Origin: a virus | Length of the DNA: 63,018 nucleotides | UHGV virus genome: UHGV-0170870 | Strand: one strand, 5' to 3' | Shown here: positions 19,466-24,402 of the stretch, one piece after another | How the letters are laid out: each line of letters begins with the position of its first letter | Numbering within the stretch: position 1 is the first letter of the stretch | Notes under the pieces: generated by a model | Database searches by the model: none | What the model saw: only the letters and a program-made list of their open reading frames with translations | What the model was told of the DNA's origin: nothing | Translations under genes and position numbers: made by a program

Positions 19466-20344
19466 TACACAGACAAGAGCCCCTCATGCCTCTGACCATA
19501 AAGGCGTTGCCGTAGACCACGGCCGCGTGCGTCACGTGTGTTCAGGGCCATCCACTATGCGCTAGGTCAGCGCCGTGTCGCGGATGGGCGCTATTCGGGG
19601 AATAGCAGGCAAGGTGAGGGCACCCGCCATATGAAGGTCGGTGCGGCCTCGCCATCCCCGTGCAATTCGATACCCCCTCTGAACGACTTTTCTCAGAACG
19701 AGAAAACGAAAATTCGCAGAACGAAAAACCAAAAATTCACGTTCTGCGAAACGAGCTGAGTGGCATGGATCAAGGGCGAGAGAACTGCGCTCACAGGGAT
19801 CATCAGCTCATACCCCAAACGAGCTGTGCATCACCGTTATGAACGATGCGCTTCACGATCCATGCCGCTCACCCAAACAGCACGCGTTGAGGCGCGTGGA
19901 GCCAAGCGATTGGCTCGCCAGGATACGAGCAGACGGGGGTCATGCTCTCCTGGCTCTGTGCGACCCGCGACGATGAGTAGATACGGCGCTGGCGGGAGCG
20001 ACGTGTCGAATACCCCGTCGCGGGTCGCAACCCGTCCGCTCGCGCGAGCACGCGCACGCACGCGCGGAAAAATTTTTTTTCGAGAGCATGTTGGTTTTGG
20101 AGATCGCCAAAATCGCAGTTGGGCGGATTGATGACAGTGCGATCTCGTCAGTGCTCAAAAGCCACAATCGCCGAGGTATGCGCGGCCACTCGGCCGAAAA
20201 CGCGGTGTGGCATTTCGATAAAAGTGCAACATGCCTCTAGGATCGCATTAGGCGCGCGCCCATGCGCTCAATCCGTCGCCCGGTATTTCGTACCATTGGG
20301 GCGGGTTGAGCGAATGAGCGGCGCGGAATTGGACGAAAAAAAAA

Positions 20345-20408
20345 CGCCGCTAAGGATCAACTCCCTAGCGGCGTTTTCGGCTTAAACCCTAGCGTCGCAA
20401 CGCTAGGG
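20345..20408. terminator. bidirectional terminator region (two hairpins)
   Basis: A9 then CGCCGCTA...TAGCGGCG stem then TTTT; second hairpin CCCTAGCG-TCGCAA-CGCTAGGG; sits between convergent transcription units. Confidence 0.55.
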
Positions 20409-20513
20409 CAAAGCTATGGCGGTTCGTCGCACGAATCGCCCGCGCCGTTATCGGCGCATGGCAAGCAAGCGAGGGCAAAGCACGTCATAGCAAAATCGCG
20501 GTTTGTCATCTCG

Positions 20514-20696
20514 TTAGGCCTTCTTCGCTTCTACCGCGCCAGTAATGCGCTTGTCAGAGTGATATCGCGACTCGCCATGCGTCATAACGTCAACCGGCTG
20601 TAGCGCGAGCGTTGAAACACGATTGGCAATCTCGCGCAAACCGATTGCGCCGATATGGTCGGCCAATCGGCCATCAATGTAAACAGTGGGATTCAT
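20514..20696 (-). CDS. hypothetical small protein
   Basis: 60-aa ORF directly downstream of hammerhead motif copy 1 and an AAAGG RBS. Confidence 0.35.
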   Translation of the reverse strand: MNPTVYIDGRLADHIGAIGLREIANRVSTLALQPVDVMTHGESRYHSDKRITGAVEAKKA

Positions 20697-20717
20697 GGCG
20701 TTAGTACCTTTCGACTT

Positions 20718-20775
20718 GGACTCATCAGTGGCCGCGTAACGGCCAGACCGCGCTACCTGGCGCGCGGTTTCGTCC
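20718..20775 (-). ncRNA. type II hammerhead ribozyme motif, copy 1
   Basis: RNA 5' GGAC-GAAA-[CCGCGC GCCAGGUA GCGCGG]-UC/UGGCCG UUACG CGGCCA-CUGAUGA-GUCC: all core nucleotides, GUC cleavage triplet, stems I and III as hairpins, stem II closed by the ends. Confidence 0.8.
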
Positions 20776-21047
20776 TAGTAGTAGCAATGGCGGAAAACGT
20801 AATTCCCGTTGTCGTCGCCCGTGAGATAGCCTCTAACGCGACAACCCGCGACGCTACAGACAGCCGGAATGGAAAAATACGTGTCGGGCTCCCCCGTGAC
20901 GTAAACAGTGCGGCGCATGTCGCCCGCCATGTTATCGAGTCGGCAGTTCTCGACCTTCGCCAATGTGGGGCCACCCATCCACACCGCAAACCACGCGGTT
21001 GATCCATCGGGCATATGTTCCGATTTGTCGGCGCGATACTTTTGCAT
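20775..21047 (-). CDS. hypothetical protein
   Basis: 90-aa ORF in small-gene cassette. Confidence 0.4.
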   Translation of the reverse strand: MQKYRADKSEHMPDGSTAWFAVWMGGPTLAKVENCRLDNMAGDMRRTVYVTGEPDTYFSIPAVCSVAGCRVRGYLTGDDNGNYVFRHCYY

Positions 21048-21050
21048 TGG

Positions 21051-21293
21051 TCAATCCCTCTCGATTAGCGCGGTATAGGTTCGGCAATCGCTCGCGAGAA
21101 CGCCGAACTGCGCCGCGTCATGCCAGCGCATGAATCCCGCGTCGTCGCAGCTAACGATTGAACCGCCTAACCACGCGGCGAACTTGTCCGCTTGTGCAAT
21201 TTCGGAATCTTCCATTCCGGAAGCGTCGCCATTGATGAAATACGACGCCCAATAGCTAGGCGCGGTCCCCGTGACAGTGTCGAAGGTTGCCAT
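21051..21293 (-). CDS. hypothetical protein
   Basis: Start at internal ATG 21293 preceded by GAAGGG; ORF track extends to 21326. Confidence 0.4.
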   Translation of the reverse strand: MATFDTVTGTAPSYWASYFINGDASGMEDSEIAQADKFAAWLGGSIVSCDDAGFMRWHDAAQFGVLASDCRTYTALIERD

Positions 21294-21297
21294 TGGC

Positions 21298-21690
21298 TCA
21301 ACCCTTCGCTTTCTTGACGCGCGCATAGTCGCCCGCGCTCTTAAAGTATGTGCCGTGATAGGTTGCGCCGTTGATCGCGCGAACGGTTACCGGGACACGC
21401 TTTCCGCCAAAGTTGTCGCGGTACTCTCGACCAAACGACGCGGAGCCAAGCCTTTCCCCGTTCCACGTTGTGGCGGTATTGGTCTTTGCGTTGATATAGA
21501 GGAAATACCGTTCCGGTATGTCCCGCATAAACTCGAATAGCTCGACCTGGCCGCGCTCGTCATTGGTCGGCGGGTTGATATGGGGCGGCAGTTCGGAGGG
21601 ATGATAGCTATTCGTTTTGCGTGCTTTCATCCACGCGTGCAAAGCCTCATCCCTGGCGCGGATGTCGGCGGCTTGTTCTGGCGTTAGCAT
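21298..21690 (-). CDS. hypothetical protein
   Basis: 130-aa ORF directly downstream of hammerhead motif copy 2. Confidence 0.45.
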   Translation of the reverse strand: MLTPEQAADIRARDEALHAWMKARKTNSYHPSELPPHINPPTNDERGQVELFEFMRDIPERYFLYINAKTNTATTWNGERLGSASFGREYRDNFGGKRVPVTVRAINGATYHGTYFKSAGDYARVKKAKG

Positions 21691-21710
21691 TGGCGTTAGT
21701 ACCTTTCGTT

Positions 21711-21763
21711 GGACTCATCAGTGGCCGCGTAACGGCCAGACCGCGCTAGGCGCGGTTTCGTCC
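21711..21763 (-). ncRNA. type II hammerhead ribozyme motif, copy 2
   Basis: Same core as copy 1; stem III loop is CUA instead of GCCAGGUA, a loop-size change that preserves pairing. Confidence 0.8.
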
Positions 21764-22023
21764 TAGCGTTGCGATTCCAAGAATTTCGCTATGGTGTACG
21801 GTTCAACCGTCACTTTGACGTGGAGGCTGTAATCGTCATCAGCCCAAACCGTTGCGCAGTATCCGTAGATTGAGAGATAGCCCGGAGCAGTCATGTTACT
21901 TTCAACGTGACGCTTGATTACCTCCACGCCTCTATCAACAGTGAAAGCGAAGCTAGGATTGAGACGAGTCAAGAGGTCTGCGACCTCGCGCACATTGCTG
22001 TGATTCCAATTGAGTGCAGGCAT
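21763..22023 (-). CDS. hypothetical protein
   Basis: 86-aa ORF preceded by GAAAGGAAAAC. Confidence 0.4.
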   Translation of the reverse strand: MPALNWNHSNVREVADLLTRLNPSFAFTVDRGVEVIKRHVESNMTAPGYLSIYGYCATVWADDDYSLHVKVTVEPYTIAKFLESQR

Positions 22024-22045
22024 TGGCGTGTTTTCCTTTCTAGGG

Positions 22046-22483
22046 TTAGCGGTGGTAAATCCAACCGCGATAGACTTCGCAGTAAGCTTCGCTGAACGTC
22101 TTAGCGGCCTTGTGGAGCGCGTCGCCCGCGTCGCCTAAACCACGGTCCCAATAGCCAACGCCGTGGCCTTGACGCGAAAACCAAAAGTCATGGCCCGCCT
22201 GCTCTTCGGAGTAGCCATGCGACTCGGCCAAGCGGTCGAGCCATTGCCGGACGAAACAGCCATCCGGCATGATGAAACCGAGAAACGAGTCGCAATCGCT
22301 CGCAATGTCGCGGATTGCTTCGCGCGTGAGTCTCTCGACTCCCAAATCATTCAACCGCGACTCGTTGTCGTCGCCCGTGTCGCCATTGGTGAAAAACACG
22401 GCTTCTACGTATGCCTTCGCGAACGTTGAAAGCTTGTCGTAAGCACGCGGCGCGGGGGTATCGTTCAAGACAAATTCAGGCAT
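22046..22483 (-). CDS. hypothetical protein
   Basis: Start at internal ATG 22483 (MPEFVLND) preceded by GGAAGG; ORF track extends to 22582. Confidence 0.45.
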   Translation of the reverse strand: MPEFVLNDTPAPRAYDKLSTFAKAYVEAVFFTNGDTGDDNESRLNDLGVERLTREAIRDIASDCDSFLGFIMPDGCFVRQWLDRLAESHGYSEEQAGHDFWFSRQGHGVGYWDRGLGDAGDALHKAAKTFSEAYCEVYRGWIYHR

Positions 22484-22487
22484 TGGC

Positions 22488-22898
22488 TCAACCTTCCAAC
22501 TTGGCGCGAAGGTCGGCCATTTCGTTTGCGTGGTTACGTTCTGCGCGCTCGATTGCCGCGCGAGTGATCGCCTTAGCATCAAGCGTGTTCAAGCAATCCC
22601 ACATATCTTTAGTGGCTTGCTCTGATGTGCGGCGCGCGTGTTCTAGATCGCAACGCGAAACCACAGTTCCGAACACGTCAAATATGACGTAGCGAAAGCC
22701 TCGCTTGCGATTCTCAAAGTCGAGTGCATCGCTTGTGACGATTGCGAAAAGCAAACCGTTGTCGACGACTCGCGCGGAGATGACGCGCGACTTGTGGAAT
22801 CGCAAATTATCGTCATCCACGTAATGTGTGCGACCGCAAAGGTTGCGTTGCGCGTTGGTCTTTGGATCATGCGATTCAGTGCGGAAAAGCGTAGTCAT
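22488..22898 (-). CDS. hypothetical protein
   Basis: Start at internal ATG 22898 (MTTLFRTE) directly downstream of hammerhead motif copy 3; ORF track extends to 22991 through the ribozyme. Confidence 0.45.
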   Translation of the reverse strand: MTTLFRTESHDPKTNAQRNLCGRTHYVDDDNLRFHKSRVISARVVDNGLLFAIVTSDALDFENRKRGFRYVIFDVFGTVVSRCDLEHARRTSEQATKDMWDCLNTLDAKAITRAAIERAERNHANEMADLRAKLEG

Positions 22899-22919
22899 GG
22901 CGTTGTTTCCTTTCGACTT

Positions 22920-22972
22920 GGACTCATCAGTGGCCGCGTGACGGCCAGACCGCGCTAGGCGCGGTTTCGTCC
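22920..22972 (-). ncRNA. type II hammerhead ribozyme motif, copy 3
   Basis: Same core; stem I loop UCACG instead of UUACG; followed by RBS and ATG 22898. Confidence 0.8.
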
Positions 22973-23251
22973 TATTTGTCAGGTGACACATACGACACGC
23001 TAGGCGTGCGAAAGCCTTTCACGTTGTGCGAAGTGTAGGAGTCGCGTCGGTTCATTTCACAACCGATAGCGGCAAAGGCGATAACGATACCGATTGAAAC
23101 TGCGACGCAAACCGCGTCGCGCAGTGCTGCAAGGTATGCGCGGACCATTAGCGTGCCCTCGCGATGCAGAACGAAAAGCAAAACCGGCCAATGCGGATAA
23201 ACCGCAAGCCGCCGACTCGTTTTGTGCTGAAATTGATTGCGTTCATGGTGT

Positions 23252-23509
23252 TCACGCTACCGGACGGGATTGGTCGGCGGAAACATTGCACGAAACGACG
23301 CGGTAGAAGTCTCGGCTGTAGCGCGGGCGATCATTTCCGCGCACCGAAGAAAAGGCGAGGCGACGATACATTGCGTCGAAAGCTTCGCTAGGGTCGCGTA
23401 GCCAAAGGCGGGCGATCCAATCGCACCCATTGAGCGTGCAACGAAAGCGAATGTCATAGGCCTTGCGACGCGGTGGCGTTGGCATTGGGCGAAAATTCAA
23501 TTCGGTCAT
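23252..23509 (-). CDS. hypothetical protein
   Basis: Start at internal ATG 23509 preceded by GAAAGGACAAACGCCA; first gene of leftward small-gene cassette. Confidence 0.4.
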   Translation of the reverse strand: MTELNFRPMPTPPRRKAYDIRFRCTLNGCDWIARLWLRDPSEAFDAMYRRLAFSSVRGNDRPRYSRDFYRVVSCNVSADQSRPVA

Positions 23510-24018
23510 TGGCGTTTGTCCTTTCGAGCGTGTCGCCCCCGCGTGTGCGGTGGCAGGTGTGTAAGGTAGCACACCTAACGCATACAGCAAGCGTCTAGTT
23601 CGCCCCTAATGCCTGTATTCGTTGGCTTTCTTGCGTGTTGCGCGCTCGCTTAGCGCGCTCCGACATGCCACGCGCGCCAGCGTCGCGCCTTACGAGGCAT
23701 GCAATGCGCGCATGCAAAGCAAGCCGCGTGCCACGCTCCGCGCTATCGCGCTGTAATAGAGCGTGATGAGCAAGAAACACCGCGATATCAGAGACTTGCT
23801 CGCGTTTGTAACAAACCGTGATCTCGGCCGCGCCGACCCACCCCCTGGGGTGTGGGTCCCTGTCGCCACACCCCCTCCCACCGGGGGCAGTCGCCGCCCC
23901 CGAAAGTCGGCAACGTTTTAGCGAATTTGCTCACTCTTGATCGCACGGGTCGCCCCCGCGAGCTATGCGCCTCACGCGTGAGAAACGTCACCTAACACCC
24001 CCTTTGGAGCCCCCGAAC

Positions 24019-24402
24019 ATGGCAAACACGTCGCATTCGCCTCGTCGCCGGGGCGGTGTTGACGCTTGCGTCAACGAACTACCGAAGACCATCAAGATCG
24101 GTGCCTACGATTGGACGATCTGCATCCGAGATGGAGCGGACGACAAGTACGGTCAAGCCGATTTCGAGTACAGCCAGATCAACATCTGGCCGAGAAACCT
24201 AACGAGCCCCGGTCACGGCGTCGGAATAGTGCTGCATGAATGCCTGCACGTCATATTCGACAACCACGGGCTCGGCAGACTGAAGCGGGATAAAGAGGAT
24301 CGTGAAGAGCAGATCGTTCTCGGCTTCGAGGCGGGCCTGGTCTCGCTGTTCCGCGACAATCCGAAGCTGCTCGTCTGGATGAGGCGGTGGCTTCATGGCT
24401 GA
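24019..24402 (+). CDS. hypothetical protein with HExxH zinc-metallopeptidase-like motif
   Basis: VLHECLHVIF motif; ATG 24019 with GGAG RBS; immediately upstream of terminase small subunit; ORF track starts at 23965. Confidence 0.45.
   Translation: MANTSHSPRRRGGVDACVNELPKTIKIGAYDWTICIRDGADDKYGQADFEYSQINIWPRNLTSPGHGVGIVLHECLHVIFDNHGLGRLKRDKEDREEQIVLGFEAGLVSLFRDNPKLLVWMRRWLHG

What the first reader, a model, noticed from the sequence alone, without database searches (positions are those of the whole stretch)
20718..22972. Three type II hammerhead ribozyme motifs between genes of a small-gene cassette
On the minus strand, three about 55-nt elements (20718-20775, 21711-21763, 22920-22972) contain every conserved hammerhead core element in the correct order for a type II topology: GGAC (stem II 3' strand), GAAA, stem III hairpin (CCGCGC/GCGCGG), the GUC cleavage triplet, stem I hairpin (UGGCCG/CGGCCA), CUGAUGA, and GUCC (stem II 5' strand). 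The copies differ only in loops (stem III loop CUA versus GCCAGGUA; stem I loop UUACG versus UCACG), which preserves pairing and argues for selection on structure. Each lies 20-25 nt upstream of an RBS and ATG, so self-cleavage would cut a polycistronic transcript into units with hairpin-protected ends. Hammerhead ribozymes are known in phage genomes, but this regular ribozyme-RBS-gene arrangement looks like a deliberate mRNA-processing system.
Basis: partly seen in the sequence, partly recalled or inferred. Interest (0 to 1): 0.9.

Follow-up and report, generated by a model that had tools for sequence, protein, structure and literature searches.

The report
Three hammerhead ribozymes in a prophage operon
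Three small self-cutting RNA motifs (type II hammerhead ribozymes) sit between blocks of tiny genes of unknown function in a Bradyrhizobium phage, where they most likely chop one long message into shorter, hairpin-capped messages; the motifs look genuine, but this arrangement was described in prophages in 2011, so it is a new example of a known thing.

Summary
Three minus-strand elements (22972-22920, 21763-21711, 20775-20718) carry a complete hammerhead core in type II order. Rfam's Hammerhead_II model matches all three end to end but below its gathering score (27.5-30.1 vs 37 bits). That shortfall is typical of the subfamily: Rfam's cut-off recovers only 2 of 54 relatives in 17 viral loci. 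A model built only from viral relatives scores the window copies 66-74 bits (next hit 14). Across 132 distinct relatives all three helices covary (98.6% paired; 15 of 17 pairs change on both sides). Only the two canonical invariant pairs never vary. The copies lie in one antisense operon of about 11 small orphan genes in a lambda-like Bradyrhizobium prophage. Each starts at the G of the upstream TAG stop and ends 20-21 nt before the next ATG. Predicted self-cleavage gives 1209-, 993- and about 406-nt RNAs with terminal hairpins of about -11 kcal/mol. Clustered hammerheads flanking small non-conserved prophage genes, and the mRNA-processing idea, were published by Perreault et al. 2011, with cleavage shown at three other loci. 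Verdict: new member of a known kind. Cleavage here and its biological role are untested.

The parts
22920..22972 (-). Hammerhead ribozyme copy 1 (type II). Predicted cleavage 3' of C22948; loop I UCACG; stem III loop CUA.
   Evidence: Sequence; Rfam RF02276 27.5 bits, full length; viral-only model R1 73.0 bits; hammerhead fold is the MFE.
21711..21763 (-). Hammerhead ribozyme copy 2 (type II). Predicted cleavage 3' of C21739; loop I UUACG.
   Evidence: Rfam 30.1 bits; R1 73.7 bits; hammerhead fold is the MFE with 10-nt flanks.
20718..20775 (-). Hammerhead ribozyme copy 3 (type II). Predicted cleavage 3' of C20746; stem III loop enlarged to GCCAGGUA.
   Evidence: Rfam 28.8 bits; R1 66.1 bits; hammerhead fold is the MFE.
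22899..22919 (-). Leader 1 with RBS (AAGUCGAAAGGAAACAACGCC) between ribozyme 1 and the ATG of g4. It is part of the repeated module.
   Evidence: no significant structure in the predicted 3' product beyond stem I.
21691..21710 (-). Leader 2 with RBS between ribozyme 2 and the ATG of g7.
20697..20717 (-). Leader 3 with RBS between ribozyme 3 and the ATG of g10.
22972..23509 (-). Block 1 of the operon: g1 (23509-23252, 85 aa), g2 (23246-23148, 32 aa, doubtful) and g3 (23148-22972, 58 aa). The TAG stop of g3 overlaps the first G of ribozyme 1.
   Evidence: ORF and RBS analysis; the 85-aa and 58-aa genes are called in identical public contigs; no family hits.
21763..22898 (-). Block 2: g4 (22898-22488, 136 aa), g5 (22483-22046, 145 aa; phrog_1915) and g6 (22023-21763, 86 aa).
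   Evidence: g5 has 178 homologues, all unnamed. Its confident model (pLDDT 92.6) has no solved-structure neighbour and resembles only uncharacterised phage proteins.
20775..21690 (-). Block 3: g7 (21690-21298, 130 aa), g8 (21293-21051, 80 aa; borderline DUF6926) and g9 (21047-20775, 90 aa).
   Evidence: not paralogous to block 2.
20414..20696 (-). Block 4: g10 (20696-20514, 60 aa) and a possible g11 (20509-20414, 31 aa).
20340..20378 (-). Intrinsic terminator that ends the operon: a 17-pair stem followed by a T-run.
   Evidence: sequence.
23510..24019 (-). About 500 nt of non-coding leader and divergent control region upstream of g1, with several inverted repeats. The promoter was not located.

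Best explanation
The three elements are genuine type II hammerhead ribozymes. They belong to a large phage-borne subfamily with a 4-bp open stem II (GGAC/GUCC) flanked by A residues, a 6-bp stem I closed by a U-N-A-N-G pentaloop, and a stem III hairpin of variable length. They lie in one transcript, an antisense operon of about 11 small orphan genes in a Bradyrhizobium lambda-like prophage, running from a leader near 23,510-24,000 to the terminator at 20378-20340. As the RNA is made, stem III and then stem I fold locally, and stem II closes once GUCC emerges. The core then cleaves 3' of C17 (positions 22948, 21739, 20746), leaving a 2',3'-cyclic phosphate and a 5'-OH. In the type II topology the two products are held together only by the 4-bp stem II, so they should separate and make the cut effectively irreversible. 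Each upstream product ends 24-29 nt past its stop codon in the stem III hairpin (-11 to -13 kcal/mol) plus one unpaired C. That should allow normal translation termination and hinder 3' exonucleases. Each downstream product begins, with no 5' overhang, in the stem I hairpin (-10.6 kcal/mol), carries a 5'-OH, and is followed by a leader with no significant predicted structure, an RBS and the ATG. That should resist attack that depends on the 5' end and give each block a standard translation start, whatever lies upstream. The net effect would be to turn the operon RNA into a promoter-proximal piece plus pieces of 1209, 993 and about 406 nt, whose stability and translation are uncoupled. Shown here: sequence, fold, family membership, covariation, operon anatomy. 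Inferred: cleavage at this locus, product fates and the biological benefit.
For: All conserved positions of the core are perfect in all three copies. Rfam Hammerhead_II aligns end to end. The viral-only model R1 gives 66-74 bits against 14 for the next hit. In 33 MAFFT-aligned relatives 98.2% of cells pair against 68% in shuffles, and slid-register controls collapse. In 132 distinct relatives 15 of 17 pairs show changes on both sides, and only C11.1-G10.1 and A15.1-U16.1 are invariant. The hammerhead junction is the MFE fold for each copy. The window's loops keep the family-conserved U, A and G of loop I. Family context matches the window: a stop codon within 12 nt upstream in 118 of 128, an SD and start codon downstream in 104 of 128 at a median of 23 nt, and 28 of 28 multi-copy loci co-oriented with median spacing 570 nt. 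Operon anatomy and terminator. Product ends and hairpin energies. No significant structure in the leader. Sister prophages and phages that share g5 carry hammerheads in the equivalent operons; one reaches Rfam's gathering score and one shows stem II covariation. Published precedent: triple arrangements in three other bacteria cleave in vitro and one cleaves in vivo (PMC3088659).
Against: There is no cleavage assay or RNA data for this locus. Rfam scores are below the gathering score. The Watson-Crick pseudoknot that usually gives type II hammerheads fast cleavage at physiological Mg2+ is absent, so the rate in vivo depends on an uncharacterised loop I contact. The upstream stop codon overlaps the ribozyme, so terminating ribosomes would transiently unfold stems II and III. 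The promoter was not found, so co-transcription of all blocks is inferred from spacing, the shared strand and the single terminator. Whether cleavage stabilises or destabilises the products is unknown. Reviews still call the role of such ribozymes an open question (PMC6155905, PMC6765202). Some sister phages (L139, L141) have no detected ribozyme, so the element is dispensable for this kind of operon.
Confidence: 0.75

Rival explanations
1. Cleavage acts as a regulated or destabilising switch, not as a constitutive maturation step. Ribosome traffic at the overlapping stop codon, Mg2+ or a host factor would set the fraction cleaved, and the 5'-OH or cyclic-phosphate ends would mark some blocks for faster decay. 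The ribozymes would then tune relative expression of the blocks, much as glmS cleavage triggers decay.
For: The TAG stop overlaps the first ribozyme base in all three copies, and a stop codon lies within 12 nt upstream in 118 of 128 relatives. This places a terminating ribosome on stems II and III. About a fifth of relatives carry a 3' tail (AUCAG) that can sequester the core, which shows that conformational control exists in the family. Reviews suggest different stabilities or translation efficiencies of the products (PMC6765202).
Against: The window's copies lack the AUCAG tail, and their hammerhead fold is the MFE. Both new ends are capped by stable hairpins with little or no overhang, which argues for protection and against decay. 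No ligand-binding or switch element was detected (Rfam).
Confidence: 0.12
2. The elements are repeated hairpin modules that no longer self-cleave, or cleave too slowly to matter. They would act only as RNA hairpins or translation-start modules, or as DNA repeats that promote recombination and exchange of gene blocks.
For: No activity data exist. Rfam scores are below gathering and there is no pseudoknot. The about 80-nt module is near-identical in three places between unrelated genes. One public contig (L008) joins the copy 3 region directly to the end of g6, as recombination between copies, or an assembly collapse, would produce.
Against: Every catalytic-core position is intact in all three copies and in hundreds of relatives, while the stems change freely with compensation. 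That pattern is expected for selection on catalysis, not for a mere hairpin or DNA repeat. The two pairs that never vary are exactly the catalytically required ones. Analogous clusters cleave efficiently (PMC3088659).
Confidence: 0.07
3. Successive cleavages release the 1209- and 993-nt inter-ribozyme RNAs. Their 5' half-ribozyme (stem I + CUGAUGAGUCC) and 3' half-ribozyme (GGACGAAA + stem III + GUC>p) re-pair through stem II and are ligated, by the ribozyme itself or by a host RtcB-type ligase, into circular or spliced RNAs.
For: Co-oriented tandem type II copies with identical stem II make such reassembly geometrically possible. The cleavage chemistry yields the ends that RtcB-type ligases join (established knowledge). 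Perreault et al. raised this possibility.
Against: Perreault et al. looked for circular or spliced products at comparable loci and found none (PMC3088659). Four base pairs is a weak clamp. No RNA ligase was seen among the 20 large phage ORFs scanned, though that scan was not exhaustive. The RBS-ATG placement after each ribozyme is explained more simply by linear mRNAs.
Confidence: 0.04

Closest known systems
Type II hammerhead ribozymes of bacteria and phages (Perreault et al. 2011, PMC3088659; Rfam RF02276, clan CL00010)
   Same: Identical catalytic core. [quoted passage not shown] Phage or prophage location. Full-length alignment to the Rfam model.
   Different: Stem II is 4 bp, against 2 bp in the Rfam consensus. 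Loop I is a 5-nt U-N-A-N-G loop, against about 10 nt. The loop I to 3'-tail pseudoknot described as typical for type II is absent. As a result, scores fall below Rfam's gathering score, as they do for 52 of 54 relatives tested.
Clustered (triple) hammerhead arrangements in the prophages of Agrobacterium tumefaciens, Azorhizobium caulinodans and Clostridium scindens (PMC3088659, Fig. 3, S1-S3)
   Same: Several co-oriented hammerheads within a few kb flank single genes or short blocks of small, non-conserved genes in a prophage. The proposed role is processing a long phage transcript into shorter mRNAs. Two of the three hosts, like Bradyrhizobium, are alphaproteobacteria of the order Hyphomicrobiales (my own knowledge of the taxonomy).
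   Different: Those loci have experimental cleavage data and this one has none. The cargo genes differ: ardA is found there, but no recognisable anti-restriction gene is found here. I could not compare the ribozyme sequences directly, because the strings were not found in the held supplement text.
Synthetic ribozyme insulators such as RiboJ (Lou et al. 2012; cited from my own knowledge, not checked here)
   Same: It works alike. A self-cleaving hammerhead placed just upstream of an RBS removes upstream RNA context and leaves a hairpin-capped, standardised 5' leader.
   Different: RiboJ is engineered, derives from a satellite-RNA hammerhead of a different topology, and sits at promoter-gene junctions. 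The elements here are natural, type II, and sit between genes inside an operon.
Twister and other small self-cleaving ribozymes found near phage genes and near hammerheads (reviewed in PMC6765202)
   Same: The same genomic niche and the same unresolved question about function. The same suggestion that they process polycistronic mRNAs.
   Different: The fold and catalytic core are different. No such ribozyme was detected in the window.

Membership tests
Hammerhead ribozyme class | Conserved catalytic core: C3 U4 G5 A6 N7 G8 A9; G12 A13 A14; A15.1-U16.1 pair; G10.1-C11.1 pair; cleavage-site H17 (not G) | tested here: met
   All positions are canonical in all three copies: CUGAUGA, GAAA, and GUC with C17.
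Hammerhead ribozyme class | Three helices radiating from the core, supported by compensatory base changes in relatives | tested here: met
   The hammerhead junction is the MFE fold. Relatives: 98.6% of cells paired, 15 of 17 pairs with changes on both sides, shuffled and slid-register controls far lower. Caveat: relatives were retrieved with a pattern that fixed the core, and in the first scans also stem II.
Hammerhead ribozyme class | Site-specific self-cleavage giving 2',3'-cyclic phosphate and 5'-OH ends | not testable with these tools
   Needs in vitro transcription or end-specific RNA-seq. Predicted sites are 22948/22947, 21739/21738 and 20746/20745.
Type II topology | Order 5'-stem II strand, GAAA, stem III hairpin, UH cleavage site, stem I hairpin, CUGANGA, stem II strand-3', with stem II open | tested here: met
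   Read directly from the sequence; Rfam and R1 alignments.
Type II topology | Loop I to 3'-tail pseudoknot as the tertiary contact (described as typical for type II, not obligatory; about 40% of all hammerheads use a pseudoknot) | tested here: not met
   The best loop-tail helix is 2-4 bp in the window copies, and the distribution in 90 relatives equals the shuffled one. A conserved U-N-A-N-G loop and flanking A residues suggest a different, non-Watson-Crick contact.
Rfam RF02276 automatic annotation | Bit score at or above the curated gathering score (37) | tested here: not met
   27.5, 28.8 and 30.1 bits. This is an operational cut-off, not a property of the RNA. It recovers only 2 of the 54 subfamily copies that R1 found in 17 loci, and a sister-phage copy reaches 37.4.
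Clustered prophage hammerheads (Perreault et al. 2011) | Several co-oriented ribozymes flanking single genes or short gene blocks within a phage or prophage | tested here: met
   Three copies on one strand, 1209 and 993 nt apart, separating blocks of about three genes. Phage identity: terminase, portal, capsid, sheath and integrase.
Clustered prophage hammerheads (Perreault et al. 2011) | Cargo consists of small, non-conserved ORFs of unknown function | tested here: met
   No informative Pfam, PHROG or NCBIfam hit. No homologue in 124 other ribozyme-bearing viral loci.
Clustered prophage hammerheads (Perreault et al. 2011) | The native polycistronic RNA is cut into the predicted pieces | not testable with these tools
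   Predicted pieces are 1209, 993 and about 406 nt plus the promoter-proximal piece.

The most novel reading that the evidence does not exclude
The inter-ribozyme RNAs (1209 and 993 nt) reassemble a complete hammerhead from the half left at each end, through the shared stem II, and are ligated into circular or permuted protein-coding RNAs in the infected cell. Tandem type II hammerhead arrays in phages would then be circular-mRNA generators and not simple processing sites.
Probability: 0.04. Interest if true: 0.8.

Novelty: new member of a known kind. Interest (0 to 1): 0.3.

Why it matters
The role of hammerhead clusters in phages has been open since 2011 (PMC6155905, PMC6765202). This locus is a clean example: three near-identical ribozymes, one operon, one terminator, and exactly predictable product ends. 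It lies in a prophage of a named bacterium, Bradyrhizobium viridifuturi according to the source names. The phage also appears in very many public datasets, so existing RNA-seq data might already contain the cleavage signature. The survey done here also has practical value. This subfamily (4-bp stem II, U-N-A-N-G loop I, no pseudoknot) is abundant in viral contigs yet almost invisible to Rfam's gathering cut-off. Routine annotation therefore misses most of these ribozymes and, with them, the true transcript structure of many phage accessory-gene operons.

Tried and rejected
- Rfam at gathering score on the whole window gave nothing. The sensitive scan was needed.
- Megablast of the cassette against phage records found no match.
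- blastn of one ribozyme against phages and plasmids found no match, because the query is short and the stems vary.
- A type I/III-like core string at 6982-7035 (minus strand) matched neither Rfam nor R1 and was dismissed.
- A pseudoknot between loop I and the 3' tail was rejected.
- Tandem duplication of whole [ribozyme + 3 genes] blocks was rejected. g4/g7 and g6/g9 are unrelated, and g5/g8 share only a marginal motif at E = 0.06.
- Cargo function: nothing informative from Pfam, PHROGs, NCBIfam or PDB sequence search. The g5 structure model is confident but has no solved-structure neighbour.
- No tRNA genes.
- The consensus scan found no promoter for the operon.
- No phage-encoded RNA ligase among 20 large ORFs; this scan was not exhaustive.
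- A search of the 2011 paper's held supplement text for these sequence strings found nothing.
- A literature search for later functional studies of phage hammerhead clusters found nothing specific.
- The actinomycete labels of the matching genome contigs were rejected as the true host.
Full report
**1. Observation**

On the minus strand the window holds three elements at 22972-22920, 21763-21711 and 20775-20718. Each reads GGAC GAAA CCGCGC-loop-GCGCGG UC UGGCCG-loop-CGGCCA CUGAUGA GUCC.

This is a complete hammerhead core in the type II order: stem II 3' strand, GAAA, stem III hairpin, GUC cleavage triplet, stem I hairpin, CUGAUGA, stem II 5' strand. Every conserved core position is canonical: C3-A9, G12-A14, the A15.1-U16.1 and G10.1-C11.1 pairs, and C17.

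A script scan for hammerhead cores in all three topologies found no other candidate in the 63 kb. CTGATGAGTCC occurs exactly three times, at these sites. With 10-nt flanks the hammerhead three-way junction is the minimum-free-energy fold of each copy.

**2. Covariance-model evidence**

Rfam reports nothing at gathering score. The sensitive scan aligns all three copies end to end with Hammerhead_II (RF02276), at 27.5, 28.8 and 30.1 bits against a gathering score of 37.

- Of the 154 raw matches, 147 had both hairpin stems, and 128 were unique.
- I built a covariance model (R1) from 33 of these viral sequences, with no window sequence in it.
- R1 scores the window copies at 73.7, 73.0 and 66.1 bits (E about 1e-17 to 1e-19). 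The next hit in the window is 14.4 bits (filters off).
- In 17 viral loci R1 finds 54 copies, but Rfam's gathering cut-off recovers only 2.

The Rfam model expects a 2-bp stem II, a loop I of about 10 nt, and a conserved 3' tail that forms a pseudoknot (alignment). This subfamily has none of these, so low Rfam scores are the norm for it and not evidence against the window copies.

**3. Covariation**

- On the plain MAFFT alignment of the 33 seeds, 98.2% of cells pair, against 68% in shuffles. Eleven of the 13 pairs in stems I and III change on both sides, and every slid-register control collapses.
- On 150 model-aligned hits from 100 loci (132 distinct sequences), where stem II was free to vary, 98.6% of cells pair and 15 of 17 pairs show changes on both sides. 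Stem II changes include GGUC/GACC, GACC/GGUC and GAAC/GUUC.
- The only two pairs that never vary are C11.1-G10.1 and A15.1-U16.1, the two pairs fixed in the canonical hammerhead.

Caveats: the relatives were found with core-anchored patterns, the seeds were chosen to pair, and alignment A3 was fitted to the model. Even so, the raw figure of 147 of 154, and the sheer variety of stems, leave no doubt that structure is conserved.

The three window copies show no compensatory change among themselves. They differ at one variable loop I position, in stem III loop length, and at a few leader bases. The cross-genome evidence does.

**4. Subfamily features that the window copies share**

| Feature | Count |
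|---|---|
| A immediately 5' of stem II | 125 of 128 |
| A immediately 3' of stem II | 103 of 128 |
| 17-nt stem I hairpin (6 bp plus pentaloop) | 90 of 128 |
| Loop I position 1 is U | 89 of 90 |
| Loop I position 3 is A | 66 of 90 |
| Loop I position 5 is G | 61 of 90 |

The window's loops, UCACG and UUACG, fit this signature.

Pairing between loop I and the 3' tail is no better than in shuffled partners. The pseudoknot described as the usual type II tertiary contact (PMC3088659; PMC6155905) is therefore absent. I infer a non-Watson-Crick contact between loop I and the A-flanked end of stem II. This is untested.

**5. Local anatomy**

The copies lie in one minus-strand unit:

- A non-coding region of about 500 nt (about 23,510-24,019) with several inverted repeats.
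- g1-g3, then ribozyme 1, then g4-g6, then ribozyme 2, then g7-g9, then ribozyme 3, then g10 and possibly g11.
- A strong intrinsic terminator at 20378-20340, with 17 pairs and a T-run.

Identical public contigs carry the same gene calls. Each ribozyme begins at the G of the upstream gene's TAG and ends 20-21 nt before the next ATG, with GAAAGG as the RBS in between.

The repeated DNA module is TAG + ribozyme + leader + ATG, about 77-85 nt. The genes around it are unrelated: g4/g7 and g6/g9 show no similarity, and g5/g8 share only a marginal motif. A similar leader without a ribozyme precedes g1 and g6.

The cassette has lower G+C (0.57) than its surroundings (0.61-0.63). It runs antisense to the neighbouring replication and packaging modules.

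**6. Genome and host**

The window encodes the following:

- gpA-type terminase
- lambda-family portal
- S49 protease
- major capsid protein E
- tail sheath
- tape measure
- Prim-Pol primase
- family A polymerase
- an integrase

It is therefore a temperate tailed phage. It is only distantly related to sequenced phages (terminase identity 37% or less; no DNA match).

The same DNA, at 99.8-99.99% identity, is filed under Phycicoccus, two Streptomyces species and an Eggerthellaceae MAG. The exact g4 protein occurs in 249 collection blocks, often on contigs of about 63 kb with different start points. The exact proteins also sit on a 7.54-Mb contig and a 393-kb contig. Source names include Bradyrhizobium viridifuturi and Bradyrhizobium sp. 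PARBB1. Fragments are filed under Klebsiella, E. coli, Mycobacterium, Aspergillus and others.

The likely host is therefore Bradyrhizobium, and the phage is a widespread contaminant of sequencing datasets.

**7. Sister loci**

g5 (phrog_1915) has 178 homologues, all unnamed. Contigs carrying 53-70% identical homologues show the same kind of small-gene operon next to a terminase or Prim-Pol gene.

- **L137/L138:** two type II hammerheads at 71 and 69 bits with R1. Rfam gives 37.4 and 36.6 bits, so one reaches the gathering score.
- **L143, the Bradyrhizobium retamae prophage:** one copy with stem II changed to GGGC/GCCC and the permitted N7 change (CUGAAGA).
- **L135/L136:** a weaker variant.
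- **L139-L141:** none detected.

Only g5, plus g7 in L143, is shared with the window, and the ribozymes sit at different places relative to g5. The ribozyme is therefore a mobile, dispensable feature of this class of operon and is independent of its cargo. In line with this, none of the window's cassette proteins has a homologue in 124 other ribozyme-bearing viral loci.

**8. How common the arrangement is**

R1 finds 192 copies in 100 viral loci, with up to 10 in one locus. Among the 150 best hits, all 28 multi-copy loci have their copies on one strand, with a median spacing of 570 nt and a range of 240-2234 nt. A stop codon lies within 12 nt upstream in 118 of 128 copies. An SD and start codon lie downstream in 104 of 128, at a median of 23 nt.

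The window's three copies, spaced 1209 and 993 nt apart, are an ordinary instance.

**9. Mechanism (inferred)**

- **Folding and cleavage.** Co-transcriptional folding should form stem III, then stem I, then stem II. Cleavage 3' of C17 gives a 2',3'-cyclic phosphate and a 5'-OH, which is established hammerhead chemistry.
- **Product release.** Only the 4-bp stem II holds the two products together, so they should dissociate.
- **Upstream products.** These end 24-29 nt after the stop codon in the stem III hairpin (-11.2 to -13.4 kcal/mol) plus one C.
- **Downstream products.** These start directly with the stem I hairpin (-10.6 kcal/mol), followed by a leader with no significant structure.
- **Predicted pieces.** A promoter-proximal piece, then 1209, 993 and about 406 nt.

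The operation resembles that of synthetic ribozyme insulators. Whether the outcome is stabilisation, insulation of translation, or tuned decay cannot be decided here.

**10. Comparison with the literature**

Perreault et al. 2011 (PMC3088659) report the following:

- the first natural type II hammerheads, common in bacteria and often near prophage integrases;
- 'on many occasions' several hammerheads flanking individual genes or short gene blocks in prophages, with non-constant genes;
- cleavage of about 2-kb native polycistronic RNAs from three triple arrangements in vitro, and of the Agrobacterium one in vivo in E. coli;
- no detectable circular or spliced products.

Two reviews (PMC6155905, PMC6765202) repeat this picture and state that the biological role remains open. 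I found no later functional study. The finding is therefore a new member of a known kind.

**11. Cargo**

No informative family hit was found for any cassette protein. The only hits are g5 to phrog_1915, which has no assigned function, and a borderline g8 match to DUF6926. The g5 model is confident (pLDDT 92.6). It has no neighbour among solved structures and resembles only uncharacterised phage proteins. What the operon does is unknown.

**12. Verdict**

My overall confidence that they self-cleave and process this operon's transcript is 0.75. The specific benefit is less certain, at roughly even odds for protective maturation or insulation.

Interest is modest (0.3). A ribozyme specialist would not be surprised, though the locus is a tidy test case for an open question. 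The survey also exposes a blind spot in routine Rfam annotation.

Noticed in passing
whole window; loci L005-L008, L129-L134: The same roughly 63-kb phage genome, at 99.8-99.99% identity, appears in assemblies labelled Phycicoccus, Streptomyces (two species), Eggerthellaceae, Klebsiella, E. coli, Mycobacterium, Aspergillus fumigatus, Lacticaseibacillus and others, and in 249 collection blocks. The exact proteins also lie on a 7.54-Mb contig and a 393-kb contig, with source names including Bradyrhizobium viridifuturi and Bradyrhizobium sp. PARBB1. It looks like a Bradyrhizobium prophage that is a widespread sequencing contaminant, so the taxon labels of many of these contigs are probably wrong.
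   Followed up: partly
viral loci L009-L128 (for example L064:5236-5300, L023:8264-8325): In 28 of 128 unique family members (about 0.7 expected by chance) the 3' tail right after stem II reads AUCAG, which is complementary to the core's CUGAU. About 21 more carry G[AG]CU, complementary to AGUC of GAGUCC. In all 28, the predicted 3' cleavage product folds this tail onto the core, and in the nearest-neighbour model it also out-competes stem II before cleavage. This may be a post-cleavage lock or a kinetic off-switch. The window's copies do not have it.
   Followed up: partly
17 viral loci (L009, L014, L016-L021, L032, L033, L042, L044, L058, L064, L076, L085, L087): Rfam's Hammerhead_II gathering cut-off detects only 2 of the 54 type II hammerheads that a subfamily model finds. 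This abundant phage subfamily (4-bp stem II, U-N-A-N-G loop I, no pseudoknot) is almost invisible to standard annotation.
   Followed up: yes
L008 (NZ_JNWO01000085.1) versus window 20033-20122 and 20718-21815: This 2.1-kb contig lacks window 20033-20122. It also passes from the ribozyme 3 region straight into the end of g6 and ribozyme 2, skipping g7-g9. This is either recombination between ribozyme modules or an assembly collapse at the repeat near the contig end.
   Followed up: no
window 22481-22493 and 21291-21303; 23507-23530 and 22021-22045 (minus strand): Gene junctions in the cassette are stereotyped. GGTTGAGCCAATG joins both g4 to g5 and g7 to g8. The leader GAAAGG-N-ACGCCAATG also precedes g1 and g6, which have no ribozyme. 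The operon seems to be built from a small set of reused junction modules around unrelated genes.
   Followed up: partly
window 20000-24000: The cassette has lower G+C (0.57) than the rest of the phage (0.61-0.63) and runs antisense between the replication and packaging modules, like an acquired accessory ('moron'-type) unit. The roughly 500-nt region upstream of g1 (23,510-24,019) holds four inverted repeats (for example 23835-23858 and 23684-23728) that may be operators or RNA structures.
   Followed up: no
window 22046-22483 (-), g5: g5 belongs to a widespread phage family with no assigned function (phrog_1915; 178 homologues). Invariant residues include F-T-N-x-D and Q-G-H-G motifs. The confident, mostly helical model (pLDDT 92.6) has no neighbour among solved structures.
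   Followed up: partly
L139/L140:1495-1743 (-): In a sister phage, the small-gene cluster on the opposite strand, upstream of the g5-homologue operon, includes a gene with an Acb2/Tad1 hairpin domain (anti-CBASS/anti-Thoeris sponge family). This hints that these small-gene regions hold anti-defence genes.
   Followed up: no
L098:5453-11442 (-), L092:7233-11138 (+), L009:7260-11602 (-): Some viral contigs carry much denser arrays than the window: 10 co-oriented hammerheads in about 6 kb (L098), 8 in about 4 kb (L092) and 6 in about 4.3 kb (L009). Copies within one genome often share a stem, which suggests local duplication or gene conversion.
   Followed up: no
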